This document shows positions 4,162-29,840 of a DNA stretch of 32,000 bases, in pieces (the stretch's first letter is position 1; the number at the start of each line of letters is the position of its first letter). The notes below the pieces were generated by a model. The model did no database searches, was not told the DNA's origin, and was given only the letters and a program-made list of their open reading frames with translations. Source of the DNA: Bacillota bacterium. GTDB lineage: Bacteria > Bacillota > Desulfotomaculia > Desulfotomaculales > Desulfocucumaceae. The position numbers were made by a program, and so were the translations under genes. The stretch spans positions 39,232-71,231 of the forward strand of contig JBMOPD010000007.1 in assembly GCA_049323615.1 (NCBI GenBank). The letters run 5' to 3'.

Positions 4162-4190
4162 AGTATATGATTAAAAAATTAGGCTGTCAA
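4162..4190 (-). promoter_or_regulatory. SigA-type promoter (TTGACA-N17-TATACT) of the adaptor-EmrA-EmrB-like unit
   Basis: Minus-strand TTGACA is complement 4185-4190, TATACT is complement 4162-4167, spacer exactly 17; conserved with 8776-8804. Confidence 0.75.
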
Positions 4191-4202
4191 TATGAAACCT
4201 CT

Positions 4203-9909: not shown

Positions 9910-9910
9910 C

Positions 9911-12016: not shown

Positions 12017-12220
12017 TGGATCACCCCTTTTATCCTCAAAGTCCGGCTGTCATGGTTTTTCCGGAATATAGCAAGACTAATATTTTTAATTATAAATCGG
12101 CTGTTATATCAAGTAAATAGCTAATTAGCGAGTTTGTGCATAATAGTACTATTTTCAATTTAGTGATAATTTAGCTTATCCAGAAAATATTATGGGTCAG
12201 TGGGAGTCCGGTTATTTTTA

Positions 12221-12532: not shown

Positions 12533-12544
12533 AAACAGGGCGGC

Positions 12545-12961: not shown

Positions 12962-13041
12962 GAATGACCTCCTTTTCTATCCTGCATTCTTAATTCAGGC
13001 AGTCTTCCAGATATAATTTATTGCTAATATTTTCATCAACA

Positions 13042-13062
13042 CTCCTGTCTCCTGTCTTCTGT
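13042..13062. repeat. 7-bp-period tandem repeat (CTCCTGT CTCCTGT CTTCTGT)
   Basis: Three heptamer units read directly. Confidence 0.9.
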
Positions 13063-13074
13063 CTCCCAATTTCC

Positions 13075-13896: not shown

Positions 13897-13988
13897 AAAA
13901 TATCCCCGAAAACAGGAATTAAAACCGTCTACGGAATAATTTGCGGAAGGCAGTACCAGATTATCGCCAGGCGGACCCAGCAGAGAGA

Positions 13989-15289: not shown

Positions 15290-15922
15290 TTATTCTGAAT
15301 TCTGACTGCTGGCGGCTGATTGCTGACAGCCGACTGCTATTTTCAAGAAAACTTTCCTTTCCTCAAGGCCCATCCAGCGCTTGAAAAGTCCGTGGGGGAC
15401 CCCTACCAGGTCCAGGGCCTTCCCCACCGTCTGGTTGATTACATCGTCCAGCTGTTTGGGCTGGTGGTAAAAGGCCGGAACCGGAGGCATCAGTATCCCG
15501 CCGGCCATGGTGACCTGCTCCATCAGCCTGATGTGCCCCAGGTGCAGCGGGGTTTCCCGCAACAGCAGGACCAGCCTCCTTCTTTCCTTGAGCACCACAT
15601 CGGCGGCCCTGGCCATCAGGTTGTCGTTGTAAGAACAGGCTATGGCCGAAAGGGTCTTAACAGAACAGGGAGCGATGATCATGCCGGCGGTCTGAAAAGA
15701 TCCGCTGGCGATTGAAGCCCCGACGTTTTCCATGTCGTATGTCCTGTGGGCCAGTCCCCTGACATAATTTAAATCGTAGGATGTCTCATGGGTTATGGTT
15801 ATTTCGGCCACCCTGGATATAATCAGGTGGGTTTCAATATTTTTTTCGGACGCCAGCACCTCCAGCAACCGGATGCCGTAAATGGCCCCGCTGGCGCCGC
15901 TTATGCCGACGATAATTCTCAT
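15290..15922 (-). CDS. ubiX: UbiX-family flavin prenyltransferase
   Basis: 210 aa; MRIIVGISGASGAIYGIRLLEVL; ASGSFQTAGMIIAPCSVKTLSAIA; RRRLVLLLRETPLHLGHIRLM; MPPVPAFY. Confidence 0.95.
   Translation of the reverse strand: MRIIVGISGASGAIYGIRLLEVLASEKNIETHLIISRVAEITITHETSYDLNYVRGLAHRTYDMENVGASIASGSFQTAGMIIAPCSVKTLSAIACSYNDNLMARAADVVLKERRRLVLLLRETPLHLGHIRLMEQVTMAGGILMPPVPAFYHQPKQLDDVINQTVGKALDLVGVPHGLFKRWMGLEERKVFLKIAVGCQQSAASSQNSE
15292..15340. repeat. Degenerate 7-bp-period array overlapping the 3' end of ubiX
   Basis: ATTCTGA ATTCTGA CTGCTGG CGGCTGA TTGCTGA CAGCCGA CTGCTAT, seven units in register. Confidence 0.7.
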
Positions 15923-15986: not shown

Positions 15987-17642
15987 TTATTGTATTTTGC
16001 CTTCTTCCTTCAGTTTGTCGGTCACCATCTGCCTCAAGGCCACCTTGTTGATCTTGGAATCCCCGGCCAACGGGAAACTGTCCACCAGTTCCAGCCTTTC
16101 GGGCAGCTTATACATGGCCAGCTTTTTGGTCTTCAGGTAGCCCACCATCTCCTCAAAGGTCAGGGGCTCCGCCGAAGAGGCCGGAATTACAAAGGCGCAG
16201 GCCTTCTCACCCATCACCGGGTCGGGCATGGCGACGACGGCGGCGTTGGAAACCTTGGGATGGGCGATGAGCAGGCTTTCGATTTCACCGGGGTAAATAT
16301 TCTGGCCCCCCCGGATGATAATATCCTTTTTCCGGCCGGCAATCACTATATAGCCGTCCTCGTCAATCTTGGCCAGGTCCCCCGGGCAGGCCCAGCCCTC
16401 GGCGTCAACGGCCTCGGTAAAGGTTTTTTCGGGATCCCGGTAGTACCCGCTGGAGCTTTGGGGGCCTCTGAAGTAGAGAAGGCCCACTTCACCGCGGGGA
16501 ACTTCCTGCCCGCTGTCGTCCACCAGCTTGATCTCGTTGCCTACAAGCGGCCTGCCCACCGTTGAGCGCCTTTTTTCCGGGGAATCCCCGGTGGAGGTGC
16601 CGGAAATGGACCCGGTATCCTGGGAGCCGTAGGTGCTTAAAATGGGGCATCCCATTTTTCTTTCCACTTCCTCGGCCAGGGTTGGGGAAAGGTAGCCGCC
16701 GCTGCACCTGATTATCCTCAGGGAGGACAGGTCGTACTTCTCCAGGGGTTCTTGGATCATGGCGGCCAGTTGGGCCGGGACCACACAGGGAACGGTGACC
16801 CTTTCCTTTTCAAAGAACTCCAGGGCTCCCACCGGGGTATATTCGTGCAGCAGCGCAATTTTCGCTCCCACCTGGGGCGCCACAAAATAGGTGGGTGTTC
16901 CGCCGGGCGCCCCGGGCCAGGGGGCAACGGCGCAGACCACATCGTCGGCGCTTAGTTTCCAGTTTTGAGCATGGGTTTTGGAGCTCCACAGGCGGGCCGC
17001 GATGGTCCACTCAACTATTTTGGGCAGGCCGGTGGTGCCCGTGGTGCTGGTCAGAAATCCCACCTCGGTGGCCTTGAGCCTTCTGGAGAGCAGGTATTCC
17101 CCGCTGTATTTTTCCACCGGGGCCTTTTGAACCATTTCGGAGTATGAAGCCGCCCCATCCGGGACTTCATCTCCGACCACAATGACGTGCTTCAGCTTGG
17201 GTAAACCGGGGCGGACCTCCCGGATCATTTCAAAATAATCAAAATTCCTGTATTTCCACGGTATTATCACCGCCGAGGCCTCAATCCGCCCCAGGATTTC
17301 GGTCAGCTCCGAGTGCCGGTATACATGCATCAGAGCTATGGAAATCAGCCCGGCCTTTTCGGCGGCCACCCTGGCGATAAATCCCTCCACCCGGTTGGGC
17401 AGCTGGATGGCAATGCGGTCGTCCTTTCCCAGTCCCAGCTCGATCAGCCCCACCGCAAGCCGGTCTATCTGCTGTTTGGCCTGGGACCAGGTAAGCCTGT
17501 TCCCTATTGAATCTATCAGGGCTTCCTTGTCGGGAAATTTGCGGGCATTCTCCTCCCAGTAGTCGGAGATAACCTCGCCGGTCCAGTAGCCCTGTTGGCT
17601 AAATTCCTCAGCTTCCTTTTCATTGAACCTTACCGGTATCAA
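15987..17642 (-). CDS. AMP-forming acyl/aryl ligase (candidate 4-hydroxybenzoate-CoA ligase)
   Basis: 551 aa; FLTSTTGTTGLPKIVEW, GWACPGDLAKIDEDGYIVIAGRKKDIIIRGGQNIYPGEIE, DSKINKVAL; EntE/DhbE-like N-terminus GYWTGEVISDYWEENARKFPD. Confidence 0.87.
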   Translation of the reverse strand: MIPVRFNEKEAEEFSQQGYWTGEVISDYWEENARKFPDKEALIDSIGNRLTWSQAKQQIDRLAVGLIELGLGKDDRIAIQLPNRVEGFIARVAAEKAGLISIALMHVYRHSELTEILGRIEASAVIIPWKYRNFDYFEMIREVRPGLPKLKHVIVVGDEVPDGAASYSEMVQKAPVEKYSGEYLLSRRLKATEVGFLTSTTGTTGLPKIVEWTIAARLWSSKTHAQNWKLSADDVVCAVAPWPGAPGGTPTYFVAPQVGAKIALLHEYTPVGALEFFEKERVTVPCVVPAQLAAMIQEPLEKYDLSSLRIIRCSGGYLSPTLAEEVERKMGCPILSTYGSQDTGSISGTSTGDSPEKRRSTVGRPLVGNEIKLVDDSGQEVPRGEVGLLYFRGPQSSSGYYRDPEKTFTEAVDAEGWACPGDLAKIDEDGYIVIAGRKKDIIIRGGQNIYPGEIESLLIAHPKVSNAAVVAMPDPVMGEKACAFVIPASSAEPLTFEEMVGYLKTKKLAMYKLPERLELVDSFPLAGDSKINKVALRQMVTDKLKEEGKIQ

Positions 17643-17664: not shown

Positions 17665-18939
17665 TCAGCCAGCTGAATTGTGATTGGCCGGTTCGGCGGC
17701 CGGCGCCGCCCCGGCCATTACTTCCCGGAAGGCCGCCACCACCGCCCGGGCAAATTCCGGGTCTTCCAAATTGGCGTCAATCTCCCTTATTTCAATGGCA
17801 CTTTTTAACCGCCTCTTCAGCTCATCGACAAAGATGCGGTCGGTATCGGGGTCGTAAAGAACCGTGGAAGCGCCGTCAATGGCGGACCAGCCCCTGAGCG
17901 GGACAAGGAACTTGACCGGGCCCCGGGCCAGGTTGAGCTTCTCGGCGAAAACCCCGGCCACCGTCACCAGCTCGTCGGGGGCCACCCGGAGAAAGGTGCG
18001 GTGGGCATCCAGGTCATACCTCTTCCGGTTATAATAGTCGGGCTTGTATTTGCTTTTCGGGGGCGTCATCAGGTTGACACAGCAGGGAGCGATCACCTGG
18101 GGCAGGCCCATCTTACCCGCAGCCTCCAGCCTGTTGGGACCGGCCGCCCTGGTCCCGCCCAGGATCTCTTCCCCCACCCCGCCGGGGGCCAGGTCAATTA
18201 CGGCCTCAAACATGCCCTCCCTTTCAATAAGCTCCTCCATTGCCTTGTCGGCCACGCCGGTGGCCGAAAAGCCCACCACCTGGCACCCCTCCCTTTCCAG
18301 CTGGTCCCGCACCATTGAGGCGCACTTCTCGCACATGTTCAATTGAGTCATGGCCACCAGGGCCTTGCCTTTTTGTTTTTTCTTCAGTACTTCCGCGCCG
18401 CTGCGGCCACCCCCGGCCATTCCGGTGATGGACCCGGCCGCCCGGTCCAGGATGCTGCGCATCAGGTCGTTCAGCCCGGTAAAGTCTACCACCGAATGCA
18501 TAATATCAATGTCCGCCGTGCCGAAATACCTGCTGGTCAGCCCCCTGGCCGCGGCCACGCTGGAAACCATCAGCTTCGGCACACCGAAGGGCAGGGCCTT
18601 CATCACGCCGGTGCCCAGCAGGGTTCCGGTGGCGCCCCCGATGCCGACAATTCCGTCCAGCCTGCCCGAACGGTACAGTTCCTTCACCTTTCTGCCCGCC
18701 CCGTCGGACACGGCCTGGATCAGCGCCGGCCGGCCGGCGTTGACAGCATCCGCCCCGGGCTCCCCGGCGGCGGCCAGGACCTCTTCCCTGGTTATGTCGG
18801 CCTCAATAGTGGGGCAACCCTTTGTGCCCACGTCTATGACTATTGTCTGAAAACCCTCTTTTTCTATTTGCTCCTTCAGGTAAATGGTTTCAGCCCCCTT
18901 GGTGTCCAGCGTGCTGACGATGACTATGGTTTTACCCAT
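17665..18939 (-). CDS. Tm-1-like ATP-binding domain protein (UPF0261)
   Basis: MGKTIVIVSTLDTKGAETIYLKEQIEKEGFQTIVIDVGTKGCPT... IVGIGGATGTLLGTGVMKALPFGVPKLMVSS... GTADIDIMHSVVDFTGLN; start moved to 18939 on RBS GAGGTGG. Confidence 0.88.
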   Translation of the reverse strand: MGKTIVIVSTLDTKGAETIYLKEQIEKEGFQTIVIDVGTKGCPTIEADITREEVLAAAGEPGADAVNAGRPALIQAVSDGAGRKVKELYRSGRLDGIVGIGGATGTLLGTGVMKALPFGVPKLMVSSVAAARGLTSRYFGTADIDIMHSVVDFTGLNDLMRSILDRAAGSITGMAGGGRSGAEVLKKKQKGKALVAMTQLNMCEKCASMVRDQLEREGCQVVGFSATGVADKAMEELIEREGMFEAVIDLAPGGVGEEILGGTRAAGPNRLEAAGKMGLPQVIAPCCVNLMTPPKSKYKPDYYNRKRYDLDAHRTFLRVAPDELVTVAGVFAEKLNLARGPVKFLVPLRGWSAIDGASTVLYDPDTDRIFVDELKRRLKSAIEIREIDANLEDPEFARAVVAAFREVMAGAAPAAEPANHNSAG

Positions 18940-19164
18940 AAAACCACCTCTTCTGTGGACTACGGCCCTTAAACTTTTTGCCTGCACACCTATCGGGGAT
19001 TGTGAAATTAATAACATGAATGACGCCCCGGGTGTCACGCTGCGGAGCCGGTCTGCCGTACAGACAAAGACAAAAGGCATTTACATTAATTTGCCTCTTT
19101 TACGCCGGCCCAGTCCGGGCGCCCCTGGCCAGGGGGCCCGGACTGTCCGGGTTAATCCCGCCCC

Positions 19165-20580
19165 TTAATCCTCAAAGCCGTAGTCCTTCCACTTGCTTAA
19201 CACTGTCTTGACCATGTCTCCGTCCAGCTGGATTTCTATGGGCTTGCGCTCCCACTCGTGCGGAATGCAGGCGTCCATGATAATCCGCGAGCAGATATCC
19301 CGGTTATTGATGGGGAGGGAGGGATCCAGGGGCGTGGACCGCCCCCGCTTGATCAGCTCGGTGGACCGGTAGGGGTCGTAACGCACGCTGAGCGCCCACA
19401 TAACCTTGTTCCAGTCATCGGCCGGGATATCGTCGTCCACCACGATCACGCCCTTGAGGCCGTAGTGGCCGGTAGTGGTGGAAACAACGGCGGTGCCCAC
19501 ATGCATGGAGTGGCCGGGATACATTTGTTTTACCGAGACTATGGCCCAGAACCGGCCGGTGGACTCGGGGGGAATGTAGACCGACTTGATGCCGGGAACC
19601 CTCATGTTCTCCAGGTCGGTCCACAGGGTGGCAGTGCGGTTCAGGGACTGGATCATGTGGGTGTCGGTAATCGGTTTACCCACCGAGGTGGCCCACAAAA
19701 TGGGGTTGTTGCGGTGCAGCACCCTCTTCACCCTGATAAAGGGCTTCGGCCACTCCTCGCTCTTCTTGCCGGAATAATACCCCGTGTATTCCCCGAAGGG
19801 ACCTTCCTCCCGGCGCTCCACCGGGTCGATTTCACCCTCCAGGATTATTTCTGCCGTGGCCGGCAGGGGCAGCCCGGTCAGGTCGCTGATAATCACCTCG
19901 GCCGGTTCGCCCCGCAGCGCCCCGATCACATCGTATTCCGATGTCCCGGCCGAAACCAGGGTACTGCCCACCAGGAAGTTCAGGGGGTCGCCCCCGATCA
20001 CCGCCGCGGCGGGCATCGGCTTGTTCAGGGCGATGTATTTGTTGAGGTGGAAGTCGGCGTGCTTGCCCTTGATGATTTGCACGCCCACGGATTTTTCATC
20101 CAGGATCTGCATGCGGTAGGTGCCCAGGTTCACCCATCCCGAATCCGGGTCCCTGGTAATGAGGGCCACCGCCGTGCCGATGAACCGCCCCCCGTCCATG
20201 GGGTAAAACTTCGGGGTGGGGAAATCGAAGAGATTTACCCCGCCGCCTTCCACTATGTTTTCCATCACCGGGCCGGTGGAAACCTCCCGGGGAGGAATCA
20301 GCTGCTTGATGGACAGCTCCATCCAGTGCCGGGCCAGGTTGCACATGCTGGTGTGCACCGGCATGTCGAGGGCCACGGCCAGCCTTTTGGAGGTGGTGAA
20401 GGCGCTGGTAAACACCGGAATGTCATACCCCTTGGGCTTCTGGAAAAGGAGCGCCGGCCCCTTTCTTTCCTCGTTTATCTTGGCGATGTGCGAAAGTTCC
20501 AGGTTCCAGTCCACTTCCGCCTCTATTCTTTTCAGCTCTCCTATTTCATCGCATTTCTTGATGAAATCCCTTAAATCCAT
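19165..20580 (-). CDS. UbiD-family prFMN-dependent decarboxylase/carboxylase (candidate phenylphosphate carboxylase)
   Basis: 471 aa; MDLRDFIKKCDEIGELKRIEAEVDWNLELSHI; active-site-like EEGPFGEYTGYYSG. Confidence 0.92.
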   Translation of the reverse strand: MDLRDFIKKCDEIGELKRIEAEVDWNLELSHIAKINEERKGPALLFQKPKGYDIPVFTSAFTTSKRLAVALDMPVHTSMCNLARHWMELSIKQLIPPREVSTGPVMENIVEGGGVNLFDFPTPKFYPMDGGRFIGTAVALITRDPDSGWVNLGTYRMQILDEKSVGVQIIKGKHADFHLNKYIALNKPMPAAAVIGGDPLNFLVGSTLVSAGTSEYDVIGALRGEPAEVIISDLTGLPLPATAEIILEGEIDPVERREEGPFGEYTGYYSGKKSEEWPKPFIRVKRVLHRNNPILWATSVGKPITDTHMIQSLNRTATLWTDLENMRVPGIKSVYIPPESTGRFWAIVSVKQMYPGHSMHVGTAVVSTTTGHYGLKGVIVVDDDIPADDWNKVMWALSVRYDPYRSTELIKRGRSTPLDPSLPINNRDICSRIIMDACIPHEWERKPIEIQLDGDMVKTVLSKWKDYGFED

Positions 20581-20616: not shown

Positions 20617-21702
20617 TCAGCTGTCCGGCTCCCGGGGAAAAAATTTCTTGCCGGCCAGCAGGGTGCTGGCGATATGTTCCAGGGCGCTGGACTTGGGCTT
20701 TACCACCGGCTCGGCCTTTTTCCTGGACCAGACGGTTTCCGGCCTGGTCTGGAGCAGTATTATATTGCCGGGAGGGGGCAAATCGCTGTCCACGGCCCAT
20801 TCCAGGTCCTGGGGGACGCCGTAGTGCCGCTCCACCATTTTCCCCAGCTTGGCCAGCTGCACAACTTCACTGTCCTCCAGGCAGGGCAGGTTAACTTCCT
20901 CCGGGGGAACATCCACCGCCTGGATGCTTCCGCCGGGGCCGTACACCATTTTCATCTTCTTGGAACAGATGACCCGCCTGGTGATCTGCAGGGTTACCTT
21001 GTCAACGGTGTATTTGTCCGGCGTGACCTGGCCGCTGACCAGGCTTTCCCCCAGCCCCCAGCTGCCTTCGATAAATATTCTTGAAGGGTCGCCGTTCAGC
21101 GGGTCCAGGGTGAACATGACCCCGGACGACCTGGCATTGACCATTTTAAGCACGGCCACCCCGATGGGCGAACTTTCCACCCGCATCCCGCGCTGCATCC
21201 GGTAGGCAATGGCCCGGGCGTTAAAGGAGCTGGCCCATACCCTCTTAACGTGGGCCAATACTTCCTCCGGGCCGTTTATATTGAGAAAGGTATCGAACTG
21301 CCCCGGCATGCTCACCGGGCCGCTGGACCGGATGGCCACACTGACGCCGGGAGCCCCGCATCTTTTCCCAAGCTCATGGTAGTGTTCAAGTATAACCTCC
21401 CTGATATCCCCGGGCACCGGCTGCGACTCCACCAGCCCGCCGATGTGCCGGCCGGCCTCCTCAAAAGCGCCCACGTCTTCCTTCATCCTGTCGATATTAT
21501 CGTCAAAATACTGGCGGATGGACCGGCCAACCCCGGTTTCGTCTATGAACGTTTCGTAAGCCTTCAGTGATACGGCGAATCCGGGGGGTACCGGCAGGCC
21601 GGACCTCAGCATCTCACCGAGGCCGCAGCACTTTCTGCCGGCCAGAAAAAGGTCATCCCTGTCCAGGTCCTCCAGCCAGTATACGTATTTATTGTCTTCC
21701 AC
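20617..21702 (-). CDS. Pyruvate/PEP-binding (PEP-synthase N-terminal-like) subunit, candidate phenylphosphate synthase subunit B
   Basis: 361 aa; GRKCCGLGEMLRSGLPVPPGFAVSLKAYETFI; VAIRSSGPVSMPGQFDTFLN; RIFIEGSWGLGESLVSGQVTPD; ILLQTRPETVW. Confidence 0.85.
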   Translation of the reverse strand: MEDNKYVYWLEDLDRDDLFLAGRKCCGLGEMLRSGLPVPPGFAVSLKAYETFIDETGVGRSIRQYFDDNIDRMKEDVGAFEEAGRHIGGLVESQPVPGDIREVILEHYHELGKRCGAPGVSVAIRSSGPVSMPGQFDTFLNINGPEEVLAHVKRVWASSFNARAIAYRMQRGMRVESSPIGVAVLKMVNARSSGVMFTLDPLNGDPSRIFIEGSWGLGESLVSGQVTPDKYTVDKVTLQITRRVICSKKMKMVYGPGGSIQAVDVPPEEVNLPCLEDSEVVQLAKLGKMVERHYGVPQDLEWAVDSDLPPPGNIILLQTRPETVWSRKKAEPVVKPKSSALEHIASTLLAGKKFFPREPDS

Positions 21703-21744: not shown

Positions 21745-23580
21745 TTACAGGATGGTAACGATACCCCTGTTCCCGTTCACCCTGATTCTCATGCCTGTTT
21801 TTATGGCCGCTGTGGCGTATCCCGCGCCGACCACCGACGGCAGGCCATACTCCCGGCAGACAATGGCAGCATGGGACATTATGCCGCCAACGTCGGTAAC
21901 CACGGCAGAGACCTTGGAGAATATGGGCGCCCAGCTGGGAGAGGTGGTAGGCGCCACAAGAATTTCGCCTTCCTGCAGCGTGGTCAGCTCTGACGGGCCG
22001 CGAACCACCCTGGCCACTCCTTCGATTACCCCAGGGGCCCCGGCGAAACCTTTCAGCTGGGAAATATCCTCCACCTTGGTCTTGTCGGCGTCCAGCCAGG
22101 CTTCCAGCCGTTCGGTGGTAATACCCCAGAGGATGATGGTAAAGGGTTCATTGACAGTTTCCGGCGGGATCCCCAGGGCCGGCGGGGGGGGATTTTCCCT
22201 GAATTTTTTCAACACATCCTTGCGCCACTCTATCTCCCGGGGCCAGTAGGACGGTCCCCTGGCCTTTACGCCGGTGGCCCAGGCGCATACCAGGTCGTAG
22301 AGCGCCTGCTGTATTTCAAAGCGGTTTAAGTACCAGATATCTTCCACATCGTTGAAGAACCCGTGTTTCACGAAAACCCCGGAAAGCTCCCTCACCTTCA
22401 TGTAGAACCTGGTGTGGAACCAGTGTTCCACATAAAACAGGTGCTCTTCCACGTAGGGATACACCGTCTGGGATATCCCCAGGAGCTGCCGGAAGGTCTG
22501 GCGGTCCTCATCGGTGCGCAGCAGGGAGGCGTATTCCTCCACGATGCGGTCCCGTTCCCGGCGCGTTTCCTCCACCGGCCGCTCCAGGCTCTCGCCCTTT
22601 TCCACCAAGTCAATGTAGGCGCGTATGGACATAAAGGGTATCTCCGGGCGGTCGTACCAGCTCCAGTGGTCGTGGTACCAGCCGGTGCCGGAGGAAGTGT
22701 AAAACCACGGCTCCTTGGACTCTTCCAGTTGCTCCAGCCATTTCCGGCCGGGATCCGAATCGGCCAGTTTTTTAACCAGCTCGCCGGGTTCCACGGTAGA
22801 CTTGATGACCTCGGCCACCCCCAGGCTGACCGCCGATTTGGCCAGCCCCTTTAGCTTCCGGTCGGGCTCGAACAGGATCACGTCTATCCCGGAAACCATT
22901 TTGGTAATGGCCCCGTCCTCGATACCCTGGAACGCCCTGCGGCAGAAACCGGCGAAGGTGACGTAAGCCGCGTAGCCCAGGTTGAGGAATTCAAAGTGGT
23001 ACTGCCAGGCCTTCAGGGCCAGGCTGATCAGCCGGTCGTACTTGTTGATCAGGTGGTAGCCGCTGCTCATGCCCACCCCGTCCATAACCACCGATATGTC
23101 TTCCATGTCCGGCAAATCGGCAATGTCAATGCTGTCAACTTCCCCGATTATTTCCTCCATCTTGACTTTCCACCGGCCGTAAAGACGGTCCCAGTTCTCG
23201 TAATAATAGCCGGCCCGCTGCATGAAATGCTGTACCCGCTCTTCCACAATCTTGGGGTCGGTCACGGGAACAGGGGTGATGTACACGTAGCCGTTTTTAA
23301 TGCGGTGGTCAACGCCATAGGCGGGAGGCACCATAAATATCCGGGTGTTGTTCTGGGAGAGGGCCAGAAACCAGGCCTCATCCCAGATCAGGTCGAAGGG
23401 GTACATCGCTTCCGGGTAGTGCAGCCCGTCATAAAACCAAAGCATGCTGTTTTCGTATTCTTCTCTTTCTTTATCATCCCGGGAAAAAATGTAATAATAT
23501 GGGTACATTCTTTCCCAACCCTCTGTCCCGGGAATTTCCGGGACATCCCCTGGCTTCATAAATTGGCGCTGCGCGGACAT
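21745..23580 (-). CDS. PEP-utilizing mobile-domain protein, candidate phenylphosphate synthase subunit A
   Basis: 611 aa; IPGTEGWERMYPYYYIFSRDDKEREEYENSMLWFYDGLHYPEAMYPFDLIWDEAWFLALSQ; C-terminal phospho-His motif VTDVGGIMSHAAIVCREYGLPSVVG; RBS AAAGGAGG. Confidence 0.85.
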   Translation of the reverse strand: MSAQRQFMKPGDVPEIPGTEGWERMYPYYYIFSRDDKEREEYENSMLWFYDGLHYPEAMYPFDLIWDEAWFLALSQNNTRIFMVPPAYGVDHRIKNGYVYITPVPVTDPKIVEERVQHFMQRAGYYYENWDRLYGRWKVKMEEIIGEVDSIDIADLPDMEDISVVMDGVGMSSGYHLINKYDRLISLALKAWQYHFEFLNLGYAAYVTFAGFCRRAFQGIEDGAITKMVSGIDVILFEPDRKLKGLAKSAVSLGVAEVIKSTVEPGELVKKLADSDPGRKWLEQLEESKEPWFYTSSGTGWYHDHWSWYDRPEIPFMSIRAYIDLVEKGESLERPVEETRRERDRIVEEYASLLRTDEDRQTFRQLLGISQTVYPYVEEHLFYVEHWFHTRFYMKVRELSGVFVKHGFFNDVEDIWYLNRFEIQQALYDLVCAWATGVKARGPSYWPREIEWRKDVLKKFRENPPPPALGIPPETVNEPFTIILWGITTERLEAWLDADKTKVEDISQLKGFAGAPGVIEGVARVVRGPSELTTLQEGEILVAPTTSPSWAPIFSKVSAVVTDVGGIMSHAAIVCREYGLPSVVGAGYATAAIKTGMRIRVNGNRGIVTIL

Positions 23581-23746
23581 GGCCCGCCTCCTTTTACTAC
23601 ATTTTTTTCTCTTTATAAAACTTATAAAACGGTGCGCTGCTGCGGGCGGCGATCACTTCCTTCCCGGGTCTTAAAACGGCAGTCCACAAAAAGTTTGACG
23701 GGCCTCTTTTCTTGACATAGGCCGGCTTACTCTGTAAATTGAAAAC

Positions 23747-23854
23747 ATAAAAGTCACTGTAAACACGGCTTGCCAGGCCGGCGTTTTACAGTGTCACCCC
23801 GCCACTGCCGGCCTGTTTACTTGACCGGGGAGGACCGGCAGTGGCGATTTTTTT
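23747..23854 (+). ncRNA. Candidate small RNA with its own promoter and intrinsic terminator
   Basis: Plus-strand TTGACA (23712-23717)-N17-TAAATT (23735-23740); terminator-like GCCACTGCCGG (23801-23811) / CCGGCAGTGGC (23835-23845) followed by T7 (23848-23854). Confidence 0.3.
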
Positions 23855-23863
23855 GGCTTTGCC

Positions 23864-26302
23864 TTACCTCATTCCCTCAATCATCTTTAGGGCCAGCTGC
23901 ACCTGCAGATTGGTCTCGGGGTGGCTTAAATTTATTCCGGCTATTTCGGATATACGCCTCAGCCTGTATTTCATGGTGCTGGAATTCATGAACCCGTTGC
24001 GGGCCGCTTTCTGAATGTTGCAGTTGTTGTTGAAATAAAGCATCAGGGTCTGCACCAGGTGGGAATTGTGTTTTTCGTCGTATTTCAACAGGGGGCCGAT
24101 GACGCGGTCAATAAACTTTTTAAACTGTTCCGCGTTGATATTGAGCAGGCCGAAAACACCAAGCAACTCGTGGGCCTGGCATTTGTTCCGGTAGTTCAGC
24201 GACTTGATTATATCAATGGTTATGCAGGCCTCCTGGTACGAGGCGGCAAACCCGGACACGCCCCGGCAGGGCGAACTGATGCCCGCCCGCCAGATGTAAT
24301 CCGGAAAAATGTCGTTGAATCTTCTCTCCATTTCCCCGGTCATGTTCCGCAAGTGGGTGGCCGCCTGTTTTTCCCGGGTTTCATCCAGAATTAAAAGGCC
24401 AATTATGTTTACCTTTTTCCCGATAACCACTATATTGGGGGATACCTGGCTGACCACCCGGTCCACAGCCTGAAAGAGGCTTTTCCCTTTACAGTAGCTC
24501 TCCGGCGGGGCAACGGCGGCTTTGGGAATAAAATCGATGGCCACCACCCTGAAAGTCCCGGTCAGGTCCAGCCCCAATTTCTCGGCCCGGCGGATAATCA
24601 CTTCCTCGTTATCAAGCTTCCCTTCCAGCAATTCTTCCAAAAAGTCTTTCTTAAGCCTCCTTTCGGTCTCAAAGGAGGCCTTCTGTTTGAGCAAATCCAG
24701 GGCAATGACGGTCCCGGCATGCTCAACGGCCATGCAGTCCAGCTGGCTGAGAGGCCGGTTGCCCTCCAGGGTGGCGACAAAGCCCAGGTTATCACTGCCG
24801 GCCATTATGGAGGCCACCACCAGGTTAGACTGGGGATTTGATTTCTTTGCCGCCGCAATATTGATTAAACGTTTCTCGGCAAAAAGAGTGGCCATTTTTT
24901 CCCTGAACCGGGCCTCCTGTATGGTGTCCTGCCAGACCTGCCCGATATCCCCCGCGCCGCCCCCGGGAACCGAGCTTGATATGATATTGAAGAACTGGTC
25001 TGCGATAATCACCGGGCGGGATAAAATAACGGCCAGGTTGCGGCCTATTTCCTCCAGGCCGTGGCCCTCCAGCACCAGGGAGGTAAGCCGGTTGTGAATG
25101 TGCGTGGATTTTTGCAGCGCCTCGTGCTCGGCCAAAAGCAGGCTGTTGACCCGGTACAGCTCGGCGATATTCTCCTGCAGCTTTTGATTGGTGTGCTCAT
25201 AAACCCGGGCATTGCCCAGGGCTACGGCGGAATGGGCCCCCAGAAACCCGAGTATTTCCCTGTCATGCTGGGAAAATTGCCCCCCGCCGCTTTTATTGAT
25301 CACAATCAGGGCGCCGATCAGCTCTTTCCTCAAATAAAGGGGAATCCCCAGCAGGCCTTTTATCTCAATATCCAGTCCCTGGATGGCCCGGGGAACACCG
25401 TAGCTTTCCACCGGCTCCCGGCTTTCCAATATGGAAGTGACCAGGCCCGAGGATTCGGTGAGCACCCGGGTGTTTATTTTCTCCCGGCCCATCGTTTCAT
25501 AAAGCAGTATCCTTTTTTTCCTTTCGGTGACCACGGCCATAACCGCCTTTTGGGCCCGCAGCAGTTTTTGCGCGTAATCCACCGTTTTTACCGGCATGTT
25601 GCTGGAGCTGAGATTGGTGCTGATGTCAATTATGGCCTGGTTCATGGCCTGCCATGTTTTTGCCCTCTCCCGCTCCTCCTCCAGCAGGGTCTGAAAATTT
25701 TTGAGCACCGTATTTCTATTTAAATCCTTTATATTGCGGGCCGCCTGCCCGTTCCATTCCTCCAGGGACCTCATTTCATAGCGGCAGTATGGGTCTCCCA
25801 TGCCCCGGCACATGGTCTCCACACAAACCACATCCCGCCCCATAAAACCGGACCCGAAACCGCTGGTATACCCGGTAAGGGTCCAGCAGACGGGTTCTTT
25901 TGCCCGGCCGTACTTAAGCAGGTAATTTTCGGCCTCATATGAATTTCGCCAGATCCCGCGCATGAGAAAGGCGCCGCTTTGGCGGTCAAACTTCAGCTCG
26001 TCACAGGTGGCGTGCACCATGCCCTCCAGGGTATGCATCATGGGCCCCGCCAGCATCCAATCGGCATCGCTTTTAAAAGTGAAGAATTCCCGGGAGGCCA
26101 TCACGTCAAAGTGTCCGCAGCGGTATCCAAAACGGGTAAGGATATTGCGGGCCATATCTTCTCCCAGGTTCCTCACCAGTTCTTCCCTTAACCGGAACAG
26201 GGAATCGGCCCGGAAAAGCAGCATCCGGTTGCCGCGCAGGCTTATTATCCCCTCATCCGGATTTATGTCAAGGAGTTCCGTCACCACAAAATCTGGAACC
26301 AC
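23864..26302 (-). CDS. Transcriptional regulator: XylR_N + V4R (DmpR/MopR-type aromatic sensor) - GAF - PucR/CdaR-type C-terminal HTH
   Basis: 812 aa; LAGPMMHTLEGMVHA, FLMRGIWRNSYEAENYL, EPVCWTLTGYTSGFGSGFMGRDVVCVETMCRGMGDPYCRYE; C-terminal LMLYFNNNCNIQKAARNGFMNSSTMKYRLRRISEIAGINLSHPETNLQVQLALKM; no AAA+ Walker motifs. Confidence 0.9.
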   Translation of the reverse strand: MVPDFVVTELLDINPDEGIISLRGNRMLLFRADSLFRLREELVRNLGEDMARNILTRFGYRCGHFDVMASREFFTFKSDADWMLAGPMMHTLEGMVHATCDELKFDRQSGAFLMRGIWRNSYEAENYLLKYGRAKEPVCWTLTGYTSGFGSGFMGRDVVCVETMCRGMGDPYCRYEMRSLEEWNGQAARNIKDLNRNTVLKNFQTLLEEERERAKTWQAMNQAIIDISTNLSSSNMPVKTVDYAQKLLRAQKAVMAVVTERKKRILLYETMGREKINTRVLTESSGLVTSILESREPVESYGVPRAIQGLDIEIKGLLGIPLYLRKELIGALIVINKSGGGQFSQHDREILGFLGAHSAVALGNARVYEHTNQKLQENIAELYRVNSLLLAEHEALQKSTHIHNRLTSLVLEGHGLEEIGRNLAVILSRPVIIADQFFNIISSSVPGGGAGDIGQVWQDTIQEARFREKMATLFAEKRLINIAAAKKSNPQSNLVVASIMAGSDNLGFVATLEGNRPLSQLDCMAVEHAGTVIALDLLKQKASFETERRLKKDFLEELLEGKLDNEEVIIRRAEKLGLDLTGTFRVVAIDFIPKAAVAPPESYCKGKSLFQAVDRVVSQVSPNIVVIGKKVNIIGLLILDETREKQAATHLRNMTGEMERRFNDIFPDYIWRAGISSPCRGVSGFAASYQEACITIDIIKSLNYRNKCQAHELLGVFGLLNINAEQFKKFIDRVIGPLLKYDEKHNSHLVQTLMLYFNNNCNIQKAARNGFMNSSTMKYRLRRISEIAGINLSHPETNLQVQLALKMIEGMR

Positions 26303-26433
26303 GGAACTACCCCCCTATAAATTTACTGAACTGTCTGAATTTTAAGGTTATTTTAGCACGGCAGCGGGAAACTGCCTATCCCCCGTACAGGTTGAAAATT
26401 TATAATGACAATTTAGCCACAATGGACAAATAT

Positions 26434-27365: not shown

Positions 27366-27707
27366 ATGAAGTGGCTTTTATTCCTGGCTATAAACGCGGC
27401 GGCCCTCCTGGCGGCCGACTGGGTGCTGGCCGGCATCCATATCTCCGGGTTGATCCCGGCACTAATCGCGGCCTTTGCCCTGGGGGTGGTGAACACCCTG
27501 ATCAGGCCGGTGCTGGTGCTGATTACCCTCCCCATCACCGTTGTCACCCTGGGGCTTTTTATCTTTGTGGTCAACGCCCTGTCCTTCGCCCTGGCGGCAT
27601 TCCTGGTCCCCGGCTTCCACGTGTACAGCTTCGGGGGGGCCTTCTGGGGAGCCATAATCACCAGCCTGGTCAGCTGGGCCCTCAGCCGGCTGGCCGAGTC
27701 AAAATAA
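27366..27707 (+). CDS. YvlD/phage-holin-4_2-like small membrane protein
   Basis: 113 aa; MKWLLFLAINAAALLAADWVLAGIHISG... FALGVVNTLIRPVLVLITLPITVVTLGLFIFVVNALSFALAAFLVPGFHVYSFGGAFWGAIITSLV; RBS AAGGAGAG. Confidence 0.88.
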   Translation: MKWLLFLAINAAALLAADWVLAGIHISGLIPALIAAFALGVVNTLIRPVLVLITLPITVVTLGLFIFVVNALSFALAAFLVPGFHVYSFGGAFWGAIITSLVSWALSRLAESK

Positions 27708-28265: not shown

Positions 28266-29840
28266 TTGGCCCCGTCCTTACTTATGCAATACCAGCAGCT
28301 GGGCAAGCTGGAATCGCTGTGCATCGCCTTTTTCGACCTGGTGGATTCAACCTACCTTAAAAAGAAATTGGGCCAGACCCGGGGAGTGGACCTGGCGGTA
28401 AGCCACAACAGGCTGGCGGCCGGTATCTGCCAGCAATTCAGGGGCAGGGTGGTCAAGCATATCGGAGATTCCATAATGGTGGTCTTCGATACCCCCCTGG
28501 AGGGCATGCTGGCCGCCCTGGAATTTATAAGCTCGATAAACAAGGACCGGTTGCCCTTCCGCACCAAGGCGGGGCTGACTCACGGCATCGTCACCCGGGT
28601 GGATATTGACGGCGCCGATTACCTCGGGCAGGCGGTGGACCGCAGCGCCCGCCTGACCGGCCAGGCCCTGCCCAACCAGGTGCTGACGGATGAAACGACC
28701 ATGGACATAATCAAGCCCTTCATGGGGGATTTCAGCCAGATAATCTCCCGCTTCCTCGGAGTGCGTGATTTAAAGGGGATTGGCAAAGTTCCGGTCTACG
28801 AGGTGGCCCCGGCGGACTCCGGCTTTATCAACGAGGACGACCCGGTTGTGGAAGTGCAGGTGGGGTCCCCGGAGCCCGTAAAAAGCAGGCCGGCGCCAGC
28901 AGCCGCTTCCGATGCCCGGCTCCGGCTGCCGCCGCTGGCGGTGCCGCAGCCGGCCGGGCCGCTGGTGGTTGATGAGCCGCTGGGAAAAGTACTGGAATGC
29001 TGTACAATGTCCAGGGCCGAATTGGACTCGGTGGCCATCGGCTACCAGAACCTCAGCCACCTGCTGGAAAAGGCCCACGATATGCATATCCGCCAGGTGG
29101 TCTTAAGCGGGTCCTTTGCCCGGGGAACCATGGTCCGGCCGCTGGCGCCGGTTGACGTGATTGCGGTGATGGCACCCCCGGCGGACCAGCAGCAGGGGGT
29201 TAAGGAGACCTTACAGCATCTGGATCAGTATTTATCCAGGGTATACCCCGGTTCCACGTCCATTCAATCAGAGCGGTGCGTCAACCTCTCCATGGAGGGG
29301 ATAGAGTTTTCGGTTATCCCGGTTTTGGCCGTGATTGAAAACGGGCAGGGCCGGCTGCTGACCCCCAGCCAGTCGGGAGGATTCTGGGTGCCCCGCAACC
29401 CGGCGCTGCCCGAGCAGTGGCTGGAACAGGCGGTGAAACGCAACGGGCCCGTCTTTTTACCCTTCCTGCTGCTGATCAAGGCGTGGCAGAGGATTAATTG
29501 CAATTACATCAATTCTTTCCACCTGGAATTGCTTACTGATTTGATTGCCTCCCAAACCGGCCTGGAATTGTCCTTTGCATCGCTACACCAGTGGTTTCAG
29601 TATGCATACCAGTACCTGAGCCAAAATAAAAAGCCTTTTATCAAGGAACCCGGCCAGTCAAATCTATACATCGATGACTACATGTATGCCAACAGCCTGA
29701 CTTTCAACAGGTTCAGCCGCATACTGACCGAGTCCTACAACCTGGCCAGGCAGGGCATTGCCTATCTTAAAGCCGGGGAGCCCAAAACAGCCATGACCAG
29801 GTGGAAAGCGCTGTTTGGGCCGTATATGGAGGAGGTGTAG
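28266..29840 (+). CDS. Class III adenylate/guanylate cyclase domain fused to a CD-NTase/OAS-like nucleotidyltransferase fold
   Basis: 524 aa, TTG start with GCGGAGGG upstream. N-terminal CIAFFDLVDSTYLKKK... GRVVKHIGDSIMVVF... FRTKAGLTHG... GADYLGQAVDRSARLTG; C-terminal VVLSGSFARGTMVRPLAPVDVIAVM... GIEFSVIPVLAV... FLLLIKAWQRINCNYINSFHLELLTDLI... YLKAGEPKTAMTRWKALFGPYME. Confidence 0.8.
   Translation: MAPSLLMQYQQLGKLESLCIAFFDLVDSTYLKKKLGQTRGVDLAVSHNRLAAGICQQFRGRVVKHIGDSIMVVFDTPLEGMLAALEFISSINKDRLPFRTKAGLTHGIVTRVDIDGADYLGQAVDRSARLTGQALPNQVLTDETTMDIIKPFMGDFSQIISRFLGVRDLKGIGKVPVYEVAPADSGFINEDDPVVEVQVGSPEPVKSRPAPAAASDARLRLPPLAVPQPAGPLVVDEPLGKVLECCTMSRAELDSVAIGYQNLSHLLEKAHDMHIRQVVLSGSFARGTMVRPLAPVDVIAVMAPPADQQQGVKETLQHLDQYLSRVYPGSTSIQSERCVNLSMEGIEFSVIPVLAVIENGQGRLLTPSQSGGFWVPRNPALPEQWLEQAVKRNGPVFLPFLLLIKAWQRINCNYINSFHLELLTDLIASQTGLELSFASLHQWFQYAYQYLSQNKKPFIKEPGQSNLYIDDYMYANSLTFNRFSRILTESYNLARQGIAYLKAGEPKTAMTRWKALFGPYMEEV

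What the first reader, a model, noticed from the sequence alone, without database searches (positions are those of the whole stretch)
23864..26302. Aromatic sensor of the DmpR/MopR type transplanted onto a PucR-type regulator
Seen in sequence: the N-terminus is XylR_N plus V4R. Counting in this ORF gives H90, W118, C139, E162, C165 and C173. Known (recalled; numbering should be verified): MopR binds phenol through H106 and W134, and zinc through C155, E178, C181 and C189. All six are matched with one constant offset of 16 and no indels. The protein then continues into GAF and a CdaR/PucR-type HTH, with no AAA+ (GAFTGA/Walker) module or Fis-type HTH. Inference: phenol sensing in a monoderm host was decoupled from sigma54 and rewired to a different output.
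Basis: partly seen in the sequence, partly recalled or inferred. Interest (0 to 1): 0.75.

Follow-up and report, generated by a model that had tools for sequence, protein, structure and literature searches.

The report
Sigma54-free phenol sensor-regulator of Firmicutes
This gene encodes an uncharacterised regulator that joins the phenol-binding sensor domain known from sigma-54 activators (MopR/DmpR/PoxR) to a GAF plus PucR/CdaR DNA-binding body, and it sits directly in front of the genes for anaerobic phenol breakdown, so it is very probably the phenol switch of that pathway in a Gram-positive anaerobe.

Summary
An 812-aa ORF on the minus strand (26302..23864) has XylR_N, V4R, GAF, a second GAF-like domain, GGDEF_2 and a PucR-type HTH_30. 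It has no AAA+/sigma-54 module. It aligns without gaps to MopR at a constant offset of 16, so H90, W118, C139, E162, C165 and C173 match MopR's phenol anchors and zinc ligands.

These six residues are kept in almost all 120 nearest homologues, whatever their output domain.

The next genes on the same strand are ppsA, ppsB, phenylphosphate carboxylase beta, UPF0261, an aryl-CoA ligase and ubiX. This order recurs next to homologues that are only 46-69% identical. Paralogues sit beside cresol-type gene clusters instead.

No sigma-54 promoter is present in the intergenic region. The architecture is already in databases, including cultured Desulfoscipio gibsoniae, but I found no paper describing it. 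I rate it a new variant of a known kind.

In passing I found a conserved ~105-nt candidate small RNA (23745-23855, + strand). It has its own promoter and terminator and is transcribed divergently from the regulated operon.

The parts
23864..26302 (-). Regulator gene, 812 aa: XylR_N-V4R sensor, GAF, GAF-like domain, GGDEF_2, HTH_30 (PucR/CdaR type)
   Evidence: The identical protein is in NCBI as MFZ5631418.1, 'MAG: XylR N-terminal domain-containing protein [Bacillota bacterium]'.
25775..26281 (-). Sensor (A) domain, residues 8-176: XylR_N plus V4R. It carries H90/W118 (OH anchors), C139/E162/C165/C173 (zinc site), G132 (MopR G148 hinge) and W183 (MopR W199 linker).
   Evidence: Literature.
25217..25585 (-). 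GAF domain, residues 240-362, flanked by long helices 198-229 and 345-412
   Evidence: Pfam; DevS GAF hit at 9.4e-07; model; tandem-GAF and phytochrome-like Foldseek matches
24743..25060 (-). Second GAF-like (CodY-GAF-like) domain, about residues 415-520, followed by helix 520-560
   Evidence: Weak CodY hit, stronger in homologues; alpha/beta domain in the model
23885..24610 (-). PucR-type output, residues 565-806: GGDEF_2 (565-697) and HTH_30 (749-806)
   Evidence: Pfam. NCBIfam AdeR and CdaR partial matches, below their cutoffs.
26350..26378 (-). Candidate sigma-A promoter of the regulator gene (TAGGCA-17-TAAAAT with TG extension)
   Evidence: Consensus scan only; not tested
23581..23711 (-). 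Region that must hold the ppsA promoter and operator. It has no recognisable -35, only -10-like TATAAG/TATAAA, and no sigma-54 -24/-12 element.
   Evidence: No operator could be defined.
23712..23740 (+). Conserved sigma-70-type promoter (TTGACA-17-TAAATT) pointing away from ppsA
   Evidence: The hexamers are conserved and the spacer varies across homologous loci.
23745..23855 (+). Candidate ~105-nt small RNA: two hairpins, the second a terminator followed by U7
21745..23580 (-). ppsA-like gene (611 aa, PEP-utilizers mobile domain), first gene of the presumed target operon
   Evidence: Pfam; NCBIfam NF006152, 883 bits against a cutoff of 723
20617..21702 (-). ppsB-like gene (361 aa, PPDK_N ATP-binding domain)
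19165..20580 (-). Phenylphosphate carboxylase beta subunit (UbiD family)
   Evidence: TIGR02724 equivalog, 643.9 bits against a cutoff of 468.95; Pfam UbiD
17665..19080 (-). UPF0261 protein, conserved within these clusters
15987..17642 (-). Aryl-CoA ligase (probably for 4-hydroxybenzoate)
   Evidence: Substrate is inferred from the pathway.
15290..15922 (-). UbiX flavin prenyltransferase (makes the cofactor for the UbiD enzyme)

Best explanation
The gene encodes a one-component, sigma-54-independent transcription factor that senses phenol (or a very close phenolic compound) and controls the anaerobic phenol operon immediately downstream (ppsAB, ppcB, UPF0261, CoA ligase, ubiX).

Shown by sequence and structure comparison:
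- The N-terminal 185 residues are a MopR/PoxR/DmpR-type A-domain. The OH-anchoring His/Trp pair, the Cys-Glu-Cys-Cys zinc site and the relay residues (G132 = MopR G148 hinge; W183 = MopR W199 linker) are all intact.
- The rest of the protein is helix, GAF, long helix, GAF-like domain, helix, GGDEF_2 and HTH_30.

Inferred:
- The protein is a parallel dimer.
- Phenol binds the buried pocket. The change is passed down the helical linkers and through the two GAF-type domains, as in tandem-GAF phosphodiesterases and phytochrome-diguanylate cyclases. This re-sets the PucR-type HTH pair.
- The HTH pair then activates a sigma-A promoter with a poor -35 in front of ppsA. In MopR/DmpR the same sensor instead releases an AAA+ ATPase that remodels sigma-54 polymerase.
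- Paralogues with altered pocket-lining residues do the same job for cresol (hydroxybenzylsuccinate) pathways.
For: Architecture and residue equivalence.

Literature on residue roles: H106/W134 anchor the OH and H106Y switches MopR from phenols to benzenes.

[quoted passage not shown] The other three are A98 for Val, T146 for Ala and F149 for Tyr.

Target genes: ppcB passes its NCBIfam equivalog cutoff, and ppsA passes NF006152.

Synteny: regulator-ppsA-ppsB-ubiD-UPF0261-ligase recurs in L004 (55% identical regulator), L005 (69%), L087 (68%), and L009 and L010 (46-47%). Partial versions occur in L091, L092, L011 and L002.

Sensor conservation: within the 32-member alignment, W118, C139, E162, C165 and C173 are invariant and H90 is present in 31 of 32.

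Paralogues next to Bss/Hbs-type glycyl-radical and bhs beta-oxidation genes differ at pocket-lining positions 83, 100, 114, 116, 160 and 175. This parallels PheR, PcrS and EtpR in Aromatoleum (PMC10715001).

No AAA+ motifs. No sigma-54 promoter in 23581-23863.

PheR, a sigma-54 regulator with the same sensor type, is experimentally required for ppsA expression in Aromatoleum, so this sensor-pathway pairing has a precedent.
Against: - No binding or expression data exist for any member of the family.
- Several pocket-lining residues differ from MopR: F99->M83, F132->G116, Y176->C160, S166->G150, I191->Y175. In MopR, F132A and Y176F enlarge the cavity, so the exact ligand is uncertain.
- The six hallmark residues do not discriminate. 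They are kept in nearly all homologues of every output class.
- Relatives nested in the same clade have lost the XylR sensor yet still flank pps/ubiD genes (L008, L012, L013, L014). This shows the GAF-PucR body can serve the cluster without the sensor.
- No operator and no clear ppsA promoter could be identified.
- Whether the protein activates or represses is not known.
Confidence: 0.7

Rival explanations
1. The effector is a phenolic compound other than phenol itself, for example a cresol, catechol, hydroquinone or 4-hydroxybenzoate. The His/Trp anchor only specifies an aromatic OH, and the rest of the pocket differs from MopR.
For: Pocket-lining substitutions are of the kind that enlarge the MopR cavity (G116 for F132, C160 for Y176). 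Sister paralogues serve cresol-type clusters. In L004 the pps-linked regulator lies directly after an hbs-like cluster.
Against: The first genes downstream are phenylphosphate synthase and phenylphosphate carboxylase beta, which act on phenol and phenylphosphate. The pps-linked and bhs-linked paralogues have different pocket signatures. Y175 replaces MopR I191 and may refill the space left by G116 (inference).
Confidence: 0.2
2. The main pathway signal enters through the GAF or GAF-like domains, for example phenylphosphate, 4-hydroxybenzoate/-CoA or a metabolic-state signal. The XylR-type domain would then be an accessory or second input, or mainly a dimerisation module.
For: GAF-PucR proteins with no XylR_N/V4R sit next to ppsA/ubiD in L008, L012, L013 and L014, with no separate sensor gene in the held flanks. 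In the C-terminal tree they nest inside the sensor-bearing clade. Many other N-terminal domains are fused to the same GAF-PucR body.
Against: Forms that lost the GAF but kept the XylR sensor also sit in front of the full pps cluster (L009, L010), so the GAF is equally dispensable. The sensor's pocket, zinc site and relay residues are under strong conservation. The tree is a neighbour-joining tree without support values.
Confidence: 0.15
3. The protein is a phenol-released repressor, or a dual regulator that also controls the divergent small-RNA promoter. It would not be a simple activator.
For: PucR-family proteins are known to both activate and repress (established knowledge of B. subtilis PucR). 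EtpR, with the same sensor type, is labelled a repressor in PMC10715001. A strong conserved promoter faces the other way, 130 bp upstream of ppsA.
Against: The ppsA upstream region has no good -35 element, which is typical of activator-dependent promoters. Most characterised PucR-type relatives matched here (AdeR, CdaR) are named activators.
Confidence: 0.25

Closest known systems
MopR (Acinetobacter), DmpR/CapR (Pseudomonas), PoxR (Ralstonia): sigma-54 dependent phenol-responsive enhancer-binding proteins
   Same: The N-terminal XylR_N+V4R A-domain is shared: 31-32% identity, ungapped alignment, E 1e-29 to 1e-35, model TM about 0.8. The His/Trp OH anchors, the Cys-Glu-Cys-Cys zinc site, the G-hinge and the linker Trp are all conserved.
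   Different: This protein has no AAA+ sigma-54 activation domain, no GAFTGA motif, no Fis-type HTH and no -24/-12 target promoter. Its output is GAF, GAF-like, GGDEF_2 and HTH_30. Its targets are anaerobic phenol carboxylation genes, whereas these proteins control aerobic phenol hydroxylase. Several pocket-lining residues differ.
PheR of Aromatoleum aromaticum EbN1 (with its paralogues PcrS and EtpR)
   Same: PheR uses the same sensor type and is shown genetically to be needed for ppsA expression from a pps-ppc cluster that its gene directly flanks. [quoted passage not shown] The family here shows the same split between pps-linked and cresol-linked paralogues.
   Different: PheR and EtpR are sigma-54 dependent one-component systems, and PcrS is a histidine kinase feeding a sigma-54 activator. 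Here the output is a PucR-type HTH in Firmicutes. The cresol route nearby is fumarate addition (Hbs/Bhs), where Aromatoleum uses methyl hydroxylation.
PucR/CdaR family regulators (B. subtilis PucR and AdeR, E. coli CdaR, mycobacterial Rv1453 and Rv2242)
   Same: The C-terminal GGDEF_2 and HTH_30 domains are shared. There are partial NCBIfam matches to AdeR (96 bits) and CdaR (46 bits), and a weak PDB match to Rv2242.
   Different: All scores are far below the equivalog cutoffs (700 and 612). The usual N-terminal PucR or diacid-recognition domain is replaced by XylR_N-V4R, GAF and a GAF-like domain. None of the named members is linked to aromatic compounds.
Tandem-GAF signalling proteins (PDE2/5/6 regulatory segments, phytochrome-linked diguanylate cyclases)
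   Same: In the model, GAF-type domains are joined by long helices in series ahead of a GGDEF-fold domain (Foldseek E 1e-10 to 1e-11).
   Different: The resemblance is in fold and topology only (8-18% identity). There is no GGDEF active-site motif, and no cyclic-nucleotide or bilin binding is implied.

Membership tests
XylR/DmpR/MopR subfamily of NtrC-type sigma-54 enhancer-binding proteins | N-terminal effector-binding A-domain (XylR_N + V4R) | tested here: met
   Pfam 98.8 and 48.3 bits; PDB E 1e-29 to 1e-35; Foldseek TM about 0.8
XylR/DmpR/MopR subfamily of NtrC-type sigma-54 enhancer-binding proteins | Structural zinc site Cys-Glu-Cys-Cys and, for phenol sensors, the His/Trp hydroxyl anchors | tested here: met
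   C139/E162/C165/C173 and H90/W118 lie at equivalent alignment positions. This is sequence evidence only; metal and ligand binding were not testable.
XylR/DmpR/MopR subfamily of NtrC-type sigma-54 enhancer-binding proteins | Central AAA+ sigma-54 interaction domain with GAFTGA loop and Walker motifs | tested here: not met
   No Sigma54_activat hit; no GAFTGA or Walker A motif
XylR/DmpR/MopR subfamily of NtrC-type sigma-54 enhancer-binding proteins | C-terminal Fis-type HTH (HTH_8) and a -24/-12 promoter at the target operon | tested here: not met
   The HTH is HTH_30. TGGCAC-N5-TTGCW with up to 2 mismatches gives 16 matches in the window against 16.6 expected, and none lies in 23581-23863.
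PucR/CdaR family transcription factors | C-terminal PucR-type HTH (HTH_30) | tested here: met
   60.5 bits against a cutoff of 27, full-length match 1-58 of 59
PucR/CdaR family transcription factors | GGDEF-like middle domain (GGDEF_2) preceding the HTH | tested here: met
   63.4 bits against a cutoff of 24.5
PucR/CdaR family transcription factors | Family-typical N-terminal domain (PucR N-terminal or sugar-diacid recognition), or equivalog-level match to a named member | tested here: not met
   Neither domain was found. AdeR scores 96 against 700, CdaR 46 against 612, Rv1453 37 against 600.
Anaerobic phenol (phenylphosphate) pathway gene cluster as the regulated target | Two-subunit phenylphosphate synthase (about 70 kDa PEP-utilizer-domain protein plus about 40 kDa PPDK_N protein) and a UbiD-type phenylphosphate carboxylase with UbiX | tested here: met
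   ppsA-like protein of 611 aa (NF006152, 883 against 723); ppsB-like protein of 361 aa; TIGR02724 phenyl_P_beta 643.9 against 468.95; UbiX. The alpha, gamma and delta carboxylase subunits of the Thauera type were not found in the window.
Anaerobic phenol (phenylphosphate) pathway gene cluster as the regulated target | Phenol-dependent expression controlled by the adjacent regulator | not testable with these tools
   Only conserved adjacency is available.

The most novel reading that the evidence does not exclude
Firmicute anaerobes control phenol and cresol catabolism with a regulatory unit that has not been described. It consists of a sigma-54-independent switch, in which a MopR-type phenol pocket drives a PucR HTH through a relay of two GAF-type domains, together with a conserved ~105-nt small RNA. 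The RNA is transcribed back-to-back with the regulated operon, and its promoter is co-controlled by the same protein or feeds back on the circuit.
Probability: 0.3. Interest if true: 0.7.

Novelty: new variant of a known kind. Interest (0 to 1): 0.55.

Why it matters
The XylR/DmpR/MopR sensor is the textbook aromatic-pollutant sensor and the basis of many biosensors. Every characterised case acts through sigma-54, directly or through a two-component partner.

A natural version wired to an ordinary sigma-A type HTH would show how the same ligand-induced change can drive a completely different output. It would also give a phenol or cresol switch usable in hosts or promoters without sigma-54 machinery.

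It names a concrete candidate for the unknown regulator of anaerobic phenol and cresol degradation in Desulfotomaculum/Pelotomaculum-type bacteria, which matter in methanogenic and sulfate-reducing clean-up of aromatics. One member is in a cultured, sequenced strain (Desulfoscipio gibsoniae Desgi_0640, annotated in GenBank as 'regulator of polyketide synthase expression'), so the hypothesis is directly testable.

The natural domain-loss variants (sensor only, GAF only, both) are a ready-made dissection of the signalling relay.

Tried and rejected
- **Sigma-54 promoter search** in the window. Matches are at chance level and none is in the ppsA upstream region.
- **Rfam**, with E-value threshold on 23400-24000 and gathering threshold on the whole window. 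No known RNA family was found.
- **Search for a shared operator** between the small-RNA promoter and the operon start in nine loci. Only the ribosome-binding site and the small-RNA -35 box were recovered. A local AGGARGTGAT motif is shared by four loci but has no clear meaning.
- **TTTACAG/CTGTAAA repeats as a regulator binding site.** They are the arms of small-RNA hairpin 1 and part of its -10 region. The arms covary instead of staying constant, so I do not read them as an operator.
- **Neighbour-joining tree of the sensor domain** to find the donor class. The 39 core PucR-type sensors form one pure group. The nearest non-PucR sensors (HK/GGDEF types at distance 0.53-0.56, sigma-54 types at 0.57-0.58) are too close to call, and four distant PucR-type proteins fall elsewhere.
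- **Exact-pattern scan of metagenome contigs** for small-RNA hairpin 1. It gave one unrelated hit (L089).
- **Genomic context of Desgi_0640.** Only a 6-kb contig was retrievable.
- **Literature searches** for PucR with phenylphosphate synthase, XylR_N/V4R with PucR, PucR with phenol and anaerobic, and XylR N-terminal with Peptococcaceae. No paper describes this architecture. The D. gibsoniae genome paper and a Peptococcaceae benzene-consortium paper do not mention the regulator.
- **Lack of sigma-54 in the host as the reason for rewiring.** A sigma-54 activator gene lies next to paralogues in L085, so I rejected this idea.
Full report
**1. The observation**

The ORF at 23864-26302 lies on the minus strand. 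It starts with GTG at 26302, behind a GGGGGG ribosome-binding site, and encodes 812 residues.

Pfam gives these domains, all above their gathering scores:

| Domain | Residues |
|---|---|
| XylR_N | 8-106 |
| V4R | 118-176 |
| GAF | 240-362 |
| GGDEF_2 | 565-697 |
| HTH_30 | 749-806 |

Nothing matches the sigma-54 activation domain or a Fis-type HTH. A regex finds no GAFTGA or Walker A motif.

Against the PDB, the first 206 residues match three phenol-sensor structures:
- DmpR/CapR 6iy8, E 3.9e-35.
- MopR 5kbe, E 6.5e-30, query 15-185 on chain 31-201 with no gap.
- PoxR 5fru, E 2.9e-29, query 16-186 on chain 28-198.

The offset to MopR is therefore exactly 16 and the offset to PoxR is 12.

The recalled MopR numbering is right. 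H106 and W134 hydrogen-bond the phenol OH, and C155, C181 and C189 are the zinc cysteines (PMC9556785). The fourth zinc ligand is the Glu equivalent to XylR E172. H90 falls on PoxR His102, whose change to Tyr abolishes the phenol response (bioRxiv 10.1101/2021.01.17.427014). An AlphaFold model built from a 32-sequence alignment (mean pLDDT 77.7) superposes its N-terminal domain on PoxR and MopR crystal structures at target TM 0.78-0.84.

**2. How much the six residues prove**

I took the 120 best homologues from the 5.8-billion-protein search and classified them by output domain:
- 43 PucR type.
- About 50 sigma-54 type.
- The remainder histidine kinases, PAS-GGDEF/EAL proteins and others.

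In this set, W, C, E, C and C are invariant and His is present in 118 of 120. The set of six is therefore a signature of this sensor family as a whole. It says the pocket and zinc site are intact. Only the His carries ligand information, because His versus Tyr separates phenol sensors from toluene or benzene sensors and H106Y converts MopR.

Other pocket-lining residues differ from MopR: F99->M83, F132->G116, S166->G150, Y176->C160, I191->Y175. [quoted passage not shown] The other three positions carry A98, T146 and F149. Two residues of the MopR allosteric relay are invariant in the family: the G148 hinge (G132 here) and the W199 linker (W183 here).

**3. The stronger evidence is context**

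The genes that follow on the same strand are:

| Coordinates | Product |
|---|---|
| 23580-21745 | 611-aa protein with a PEP-utilizer mobile domain; NF006152, 883 bits against cutoff 723 |
| 21702-20617 | 361-aa PPDK_N protein |
| 20580-19165 | UbiD protein passing the phenylphosphate carboxylase beta equivalog; TIGR02724, 643.9 against 468.95 |
| 19080-17665 | UPF0261 protein |
| 17642-15987 | Aryl-CoA ligase |
| 15922-15290 | UbiX |

The 70-kDa plus 40-kDa split of a PEP-synthase-like enzyme is the known make-up of phenylphosphate synthase (established knowledge of the Thauera enzyme). This is the anaerobic phenol pathway.

The same order, regulator-ppsA-ppsB-ubiD-UPF0261-ligase, follows homologous regulators in several loci:
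- L004, regulator 55% identical.
- L005, a Bacillota MAG, 69%.
- L087, 68%.
- L009 and L010, 46-47%.

Rearranged versions occur in L091, L092, Peptococcaceae CEB3 (L011) and Desulfosporosinus lacus (L002, with two paralogues).

A sister group of paralogues is instead followed by bhs-type beta-oxidation genes and/or preceded by Bss/Hbs-type glycyl-radical enzyme genes. That is the fumarate-addition route for cresols. The members and loci are:
- P0010, with its tandem partner P0014: L085.
- P0011: L086.
- P0012: L093.
- P0018: L090.
- D. gibsoniae Desgi_0640: L094.

These paralogues differ from the pps-linked ones at pocket-lining positions 83, 100, 114, 116, 160 and 175. The pattern mirrors the PheR (phenol), PcrS (p-cresol) and EtpR (p-ethylphenol) set of Aromatoleum aromaticum. 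There, PheR has the same sensor type but a sigma-54 output, and it is genetically required for ppsA expression (PMC10715001).

**4. Sigma-54 independence**

Three results are consistent with sigma-54 independence. The protein has no AAA+ module. The 283-bp region between the regulator and ppsA holds no -24/-12 element, and window-wide matches (16) equal the shuffled expectation (16.6). The ppsA-proximal part has -10-like boxes but no -35 box, as expected for an activator-dependent sigma-A promoter.

The rewiring is not explained by absence of sigma-54 in these organisms. On contig L085 a PAS-sigma54 activator gene lies directly beside two XylR_N-PucR paralogues.

The XylR_N-V4R module is also not tied to sigma-54 elsewhere. 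It is fused to histidine kinases, PAS-GGDEF/EAL proteins and others, and PcrS is a characterised kinase example.

**5. Anatomy of the rest of the protein and its evolution**

The model shows the following order of elements:
1. The sensor, residues 1-185.
2. A helix, 198-229.
3. GAF, 235-345.
4. A 68-residue helix, 345-412.
5. A second alpha/beta GAF-like domain, 415-520. Its CodY-GAF match is weak here but clearer in homologues.
6. A helix, 520-560.
7. The GGDEF-fold domain, which has no GGDEF motif.
8. The HTH.

Foldseek matches the middle part to tandem-GAF regulatory segments of phosphodiesterases and to phytochrome-diguanylate cyclases. From this I infer a parallel dimer that relays the signal along coiled-coil linkers.

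Three architectures occur in front of phenol clusters:
- Sensor-GAF-PucR, about 812 aa.
- Sensor-PucR without the first GAF, about 665 aa (L009, L010).
- GAF-PucR without the sensor, 611-650 aa (L008, L012, L013, L014).

In a neighbour-joining tree of the C-terminal body, the second and third forms are nested inside the first (no support values). This suggests secondary losses. No separate sensor gene is present near the sensor-less forms. This is the main reason to keep open that the GAF-type domains carry a second input.

In the library of 1.84 billion representatives at 50% identity, 587 proteins match at E<=1e-30. By my reading of the best 150:
- Roughly 55-60 combine the N-terminal sensor with the PucR body: up to about 15 clusters with the long form and about 44 with the short form.
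- Many others carry different N-terminal domains on the same GAF-PucR body.

More distant short-form members in Pelotomaculum and Desulfosporosinus lie next to other UbiD/UbiX genes. The wider family therefore seems tied to aromatic (de)carboxylase clusters.

**6. What is known**

The exact protein is in NCBI as MFZ5631418.1, 'MAG: XylR N-terminal domain-containing protein [Bacillota bacterium]'. Relatives carry automatic names such as 'PucR family transcriptional regulator/predicted hydrocarbon binding protein', 'sugar diacid utilization regulator', 'CdaR' or, for D. gibsoniae AGL00195.1, 'regulator of polyketide synthase expression'.

Four full-text searches found no paper that describes or tests this architecture. 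The D. gibsoniae genome paper lists the phenol and cresol genes but does not mention the regulator.

The protein fails the membership test for sigma-54 enhancer-binding proteins because it has no AAA+ domain, no HTH_8 and no -24/-12 promoter. It is a PucR/CdaR-family member by its output domains only. I classify it as a new variant of a known kind: known sensor, known output, an uncharacterised combination, and a well-supported target.

**7. Most likely mechanism**

My confidence in this mechanism is about 0.7. Phenol enters the buried A-domain pocket and is anchored by H90 and W118. The conformational change that in MopR/DmpR releases the AAA+ domain is here passed through the helix-GAF-helix-GAF-like relay to the PucR HTH pair. 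The HTH pair then activates the sigma-A promoter of the pps operon.

The steps shown are domain identity, residue equivalence, the target cluster and its conservation. The steps inferred are the ligand, the dimer relay, the sign of regulation and the binding site.

The rivals are:
- A different phenolic ligand.
- Signal input through the GAF domains.
- Repressor or dual control.

**8. Found in passing: a candidate small RNA**

A small transcription unit lies on the opposite (+) strand, between the regulator's stop codon and ppsA. Its parts are:
- A promoter, TTGACA-17-TAAATT (23712-23740).
- A ~105-nt sequence with two hairpins (23753-23794 and 23800-23846).
- A U7 run. The MFE is -52.1 kcal/mol, z -4.9.

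The -35 and -10 hexamers, the T-run and both hairpins are conserved in homologous loci while the promoter spacer varies.

I built a covariance model from six sequences. It found three members it was not trained on:
- L037: 33 bits, E 7e-8.
- L092: 60 bits.
- L093: 42 bits.

On the nine-sequence alignment:
- 87% of cells pair, against 31-48% when partners are slid.
- 11 of 28 pairs show compensatory changes.
- No shuffle out of 500 reaches the observed values.

Several conserved U-G pairs mean the inner helix forms only on this strand. Rfam has no match, and no start codon with a ribosome-binding site is apparent by eye.

In every case the unit lies just upstream of the regulated operon and is transcribed away from it. 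This holds in L037, where the regulator is on the other side, and in L093, where the operon is the cresol-type bhs cluster. It is therefore linked to the regulated promoter region, and I could not determine its role. The fragment 23581-23863 contains this outward-facing promoter and a terminator, so the ppsA promoter must be sought in 23581-23711.

**9. Verdict**

It is supported more by gene context than by the residue argument. The architecture is recurrent in anaerobic Firmicutes and already deposited, but uncharacterised. Interest is moderate to good (0.55). It gives a directly testable candidate for the phenol and cresol switches of Gram-positive anaerobes, a natural sigma-54-free version of a widely used biosensor domain, and an associated conserved small RNA.

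Noticed in passing
window 23712-23855 (+); also L004 12609-12713(-), L005 10498-10607(-), L087 3819-3928(-), L009 10013-10119(-), L010 2456-2561(-), L092 10426-10535(-), L093 3035-3142(-), L037 7073-7179(+): Conserved candidate small RNA of about 105 nt with its own sigma-70-type promoter, two covarying hairpins and a U-run terminator. It is always transcribed divergently from the regulated phenol (ppsA) or cresol (bhs) operon. It has no Rfam match and no ORF apparent by eye.
   Followed up: yes
L008 3631-5580, L013 7977-9812, L012 414-2357, L014 2838-4790; L009 7983-9989, L010 450-2453: Natural domain-loss variants of the regulator sit next to pps/ubiD genes. The first four are GAF-PucR without the XylR sensor (Spirochaetia, Desulfovibrio, Syntrophomonadaceae and Bacillota MAGs). 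The last two are XylR-PucR without the first GAF. Both kinds nest inside the full-architecture clade in a neighbour-joining tree.
   Followed up: partly
L086 7729-10185, L093 581-3022, L090 8001-10421, L085 5297-10478, L094 3425-5878: Paralogues of the regulator flank Bss/Hbs-type glycyl-radical enzyme genes and bhs-type beta-oxidation genes (cresol route). They carry different pocket-lining residues. The D. gibsoniae member (Desgi_0640, AGL00195.1) is annotated 'regulator of polyketide synthase expression'.
   Followed up: partly
L085 3279-4988: A PAS-sigma54 activator gene lies directly beside two tandem XylR_N-PucR paralogues, so sigma-54 dependent regulation coexists with this family in related organisms.
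   Followed up: no
window 28266-29840 (+), with 27366-27707 (+): A 524-aa protein joins an N-terminal class-III nucleotidyl-cyclase-like domain to a CBASS-type oligonucleotide cyclase (SMODS; PADLOC Cyclase, 1.1e-31). A small holin-like membrane protein (Phage_holin_4_2) lies upstream. This may be a small anti-phage signalling module.
   Followed up: partly
window 17665-19080 (-): A UPF0261 protein is conserved between ppcB and the CoA ligase in nearly all of these phenol clusters, and D. lacus has two copies. Its function is unknown. The Pfam match starts at residue 50 and homologues are 414-446 aa, so the listed ATG start is probably about 48 codons too early.
   Followed up: no
window 755-8578 (-): An AcrB-type RND pump (1036 aa) with three HlyD-type membrane-fusion genes and an MFS transporter lies downstream on the same strand as the phenol genes. 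It could be a solvent or phenol efflux system.
   Followed up: no
window 8848-15023 (-): Between the phenol genes and the pump lie an ADP-forming acyl-CoA synthetase (701 aa), a DRTGG/AAA_26 protein, a TtcA-like PP-loop protein and a histone-deacetylase-family protein. Their relation to the pathway is unknown.
   Followed up: no
L054, L058, L081, L021 (Pelotomaculum spp.), L072 (Desulfosporosinus): More distant short-form XylR_N-V4R-PucR regulators lie next to other UbiD/UbiX genes (28-32% identical to ppcB). This suggests the wider family controls various aromatic (de)carboxylase clusters.
   Followed up: no
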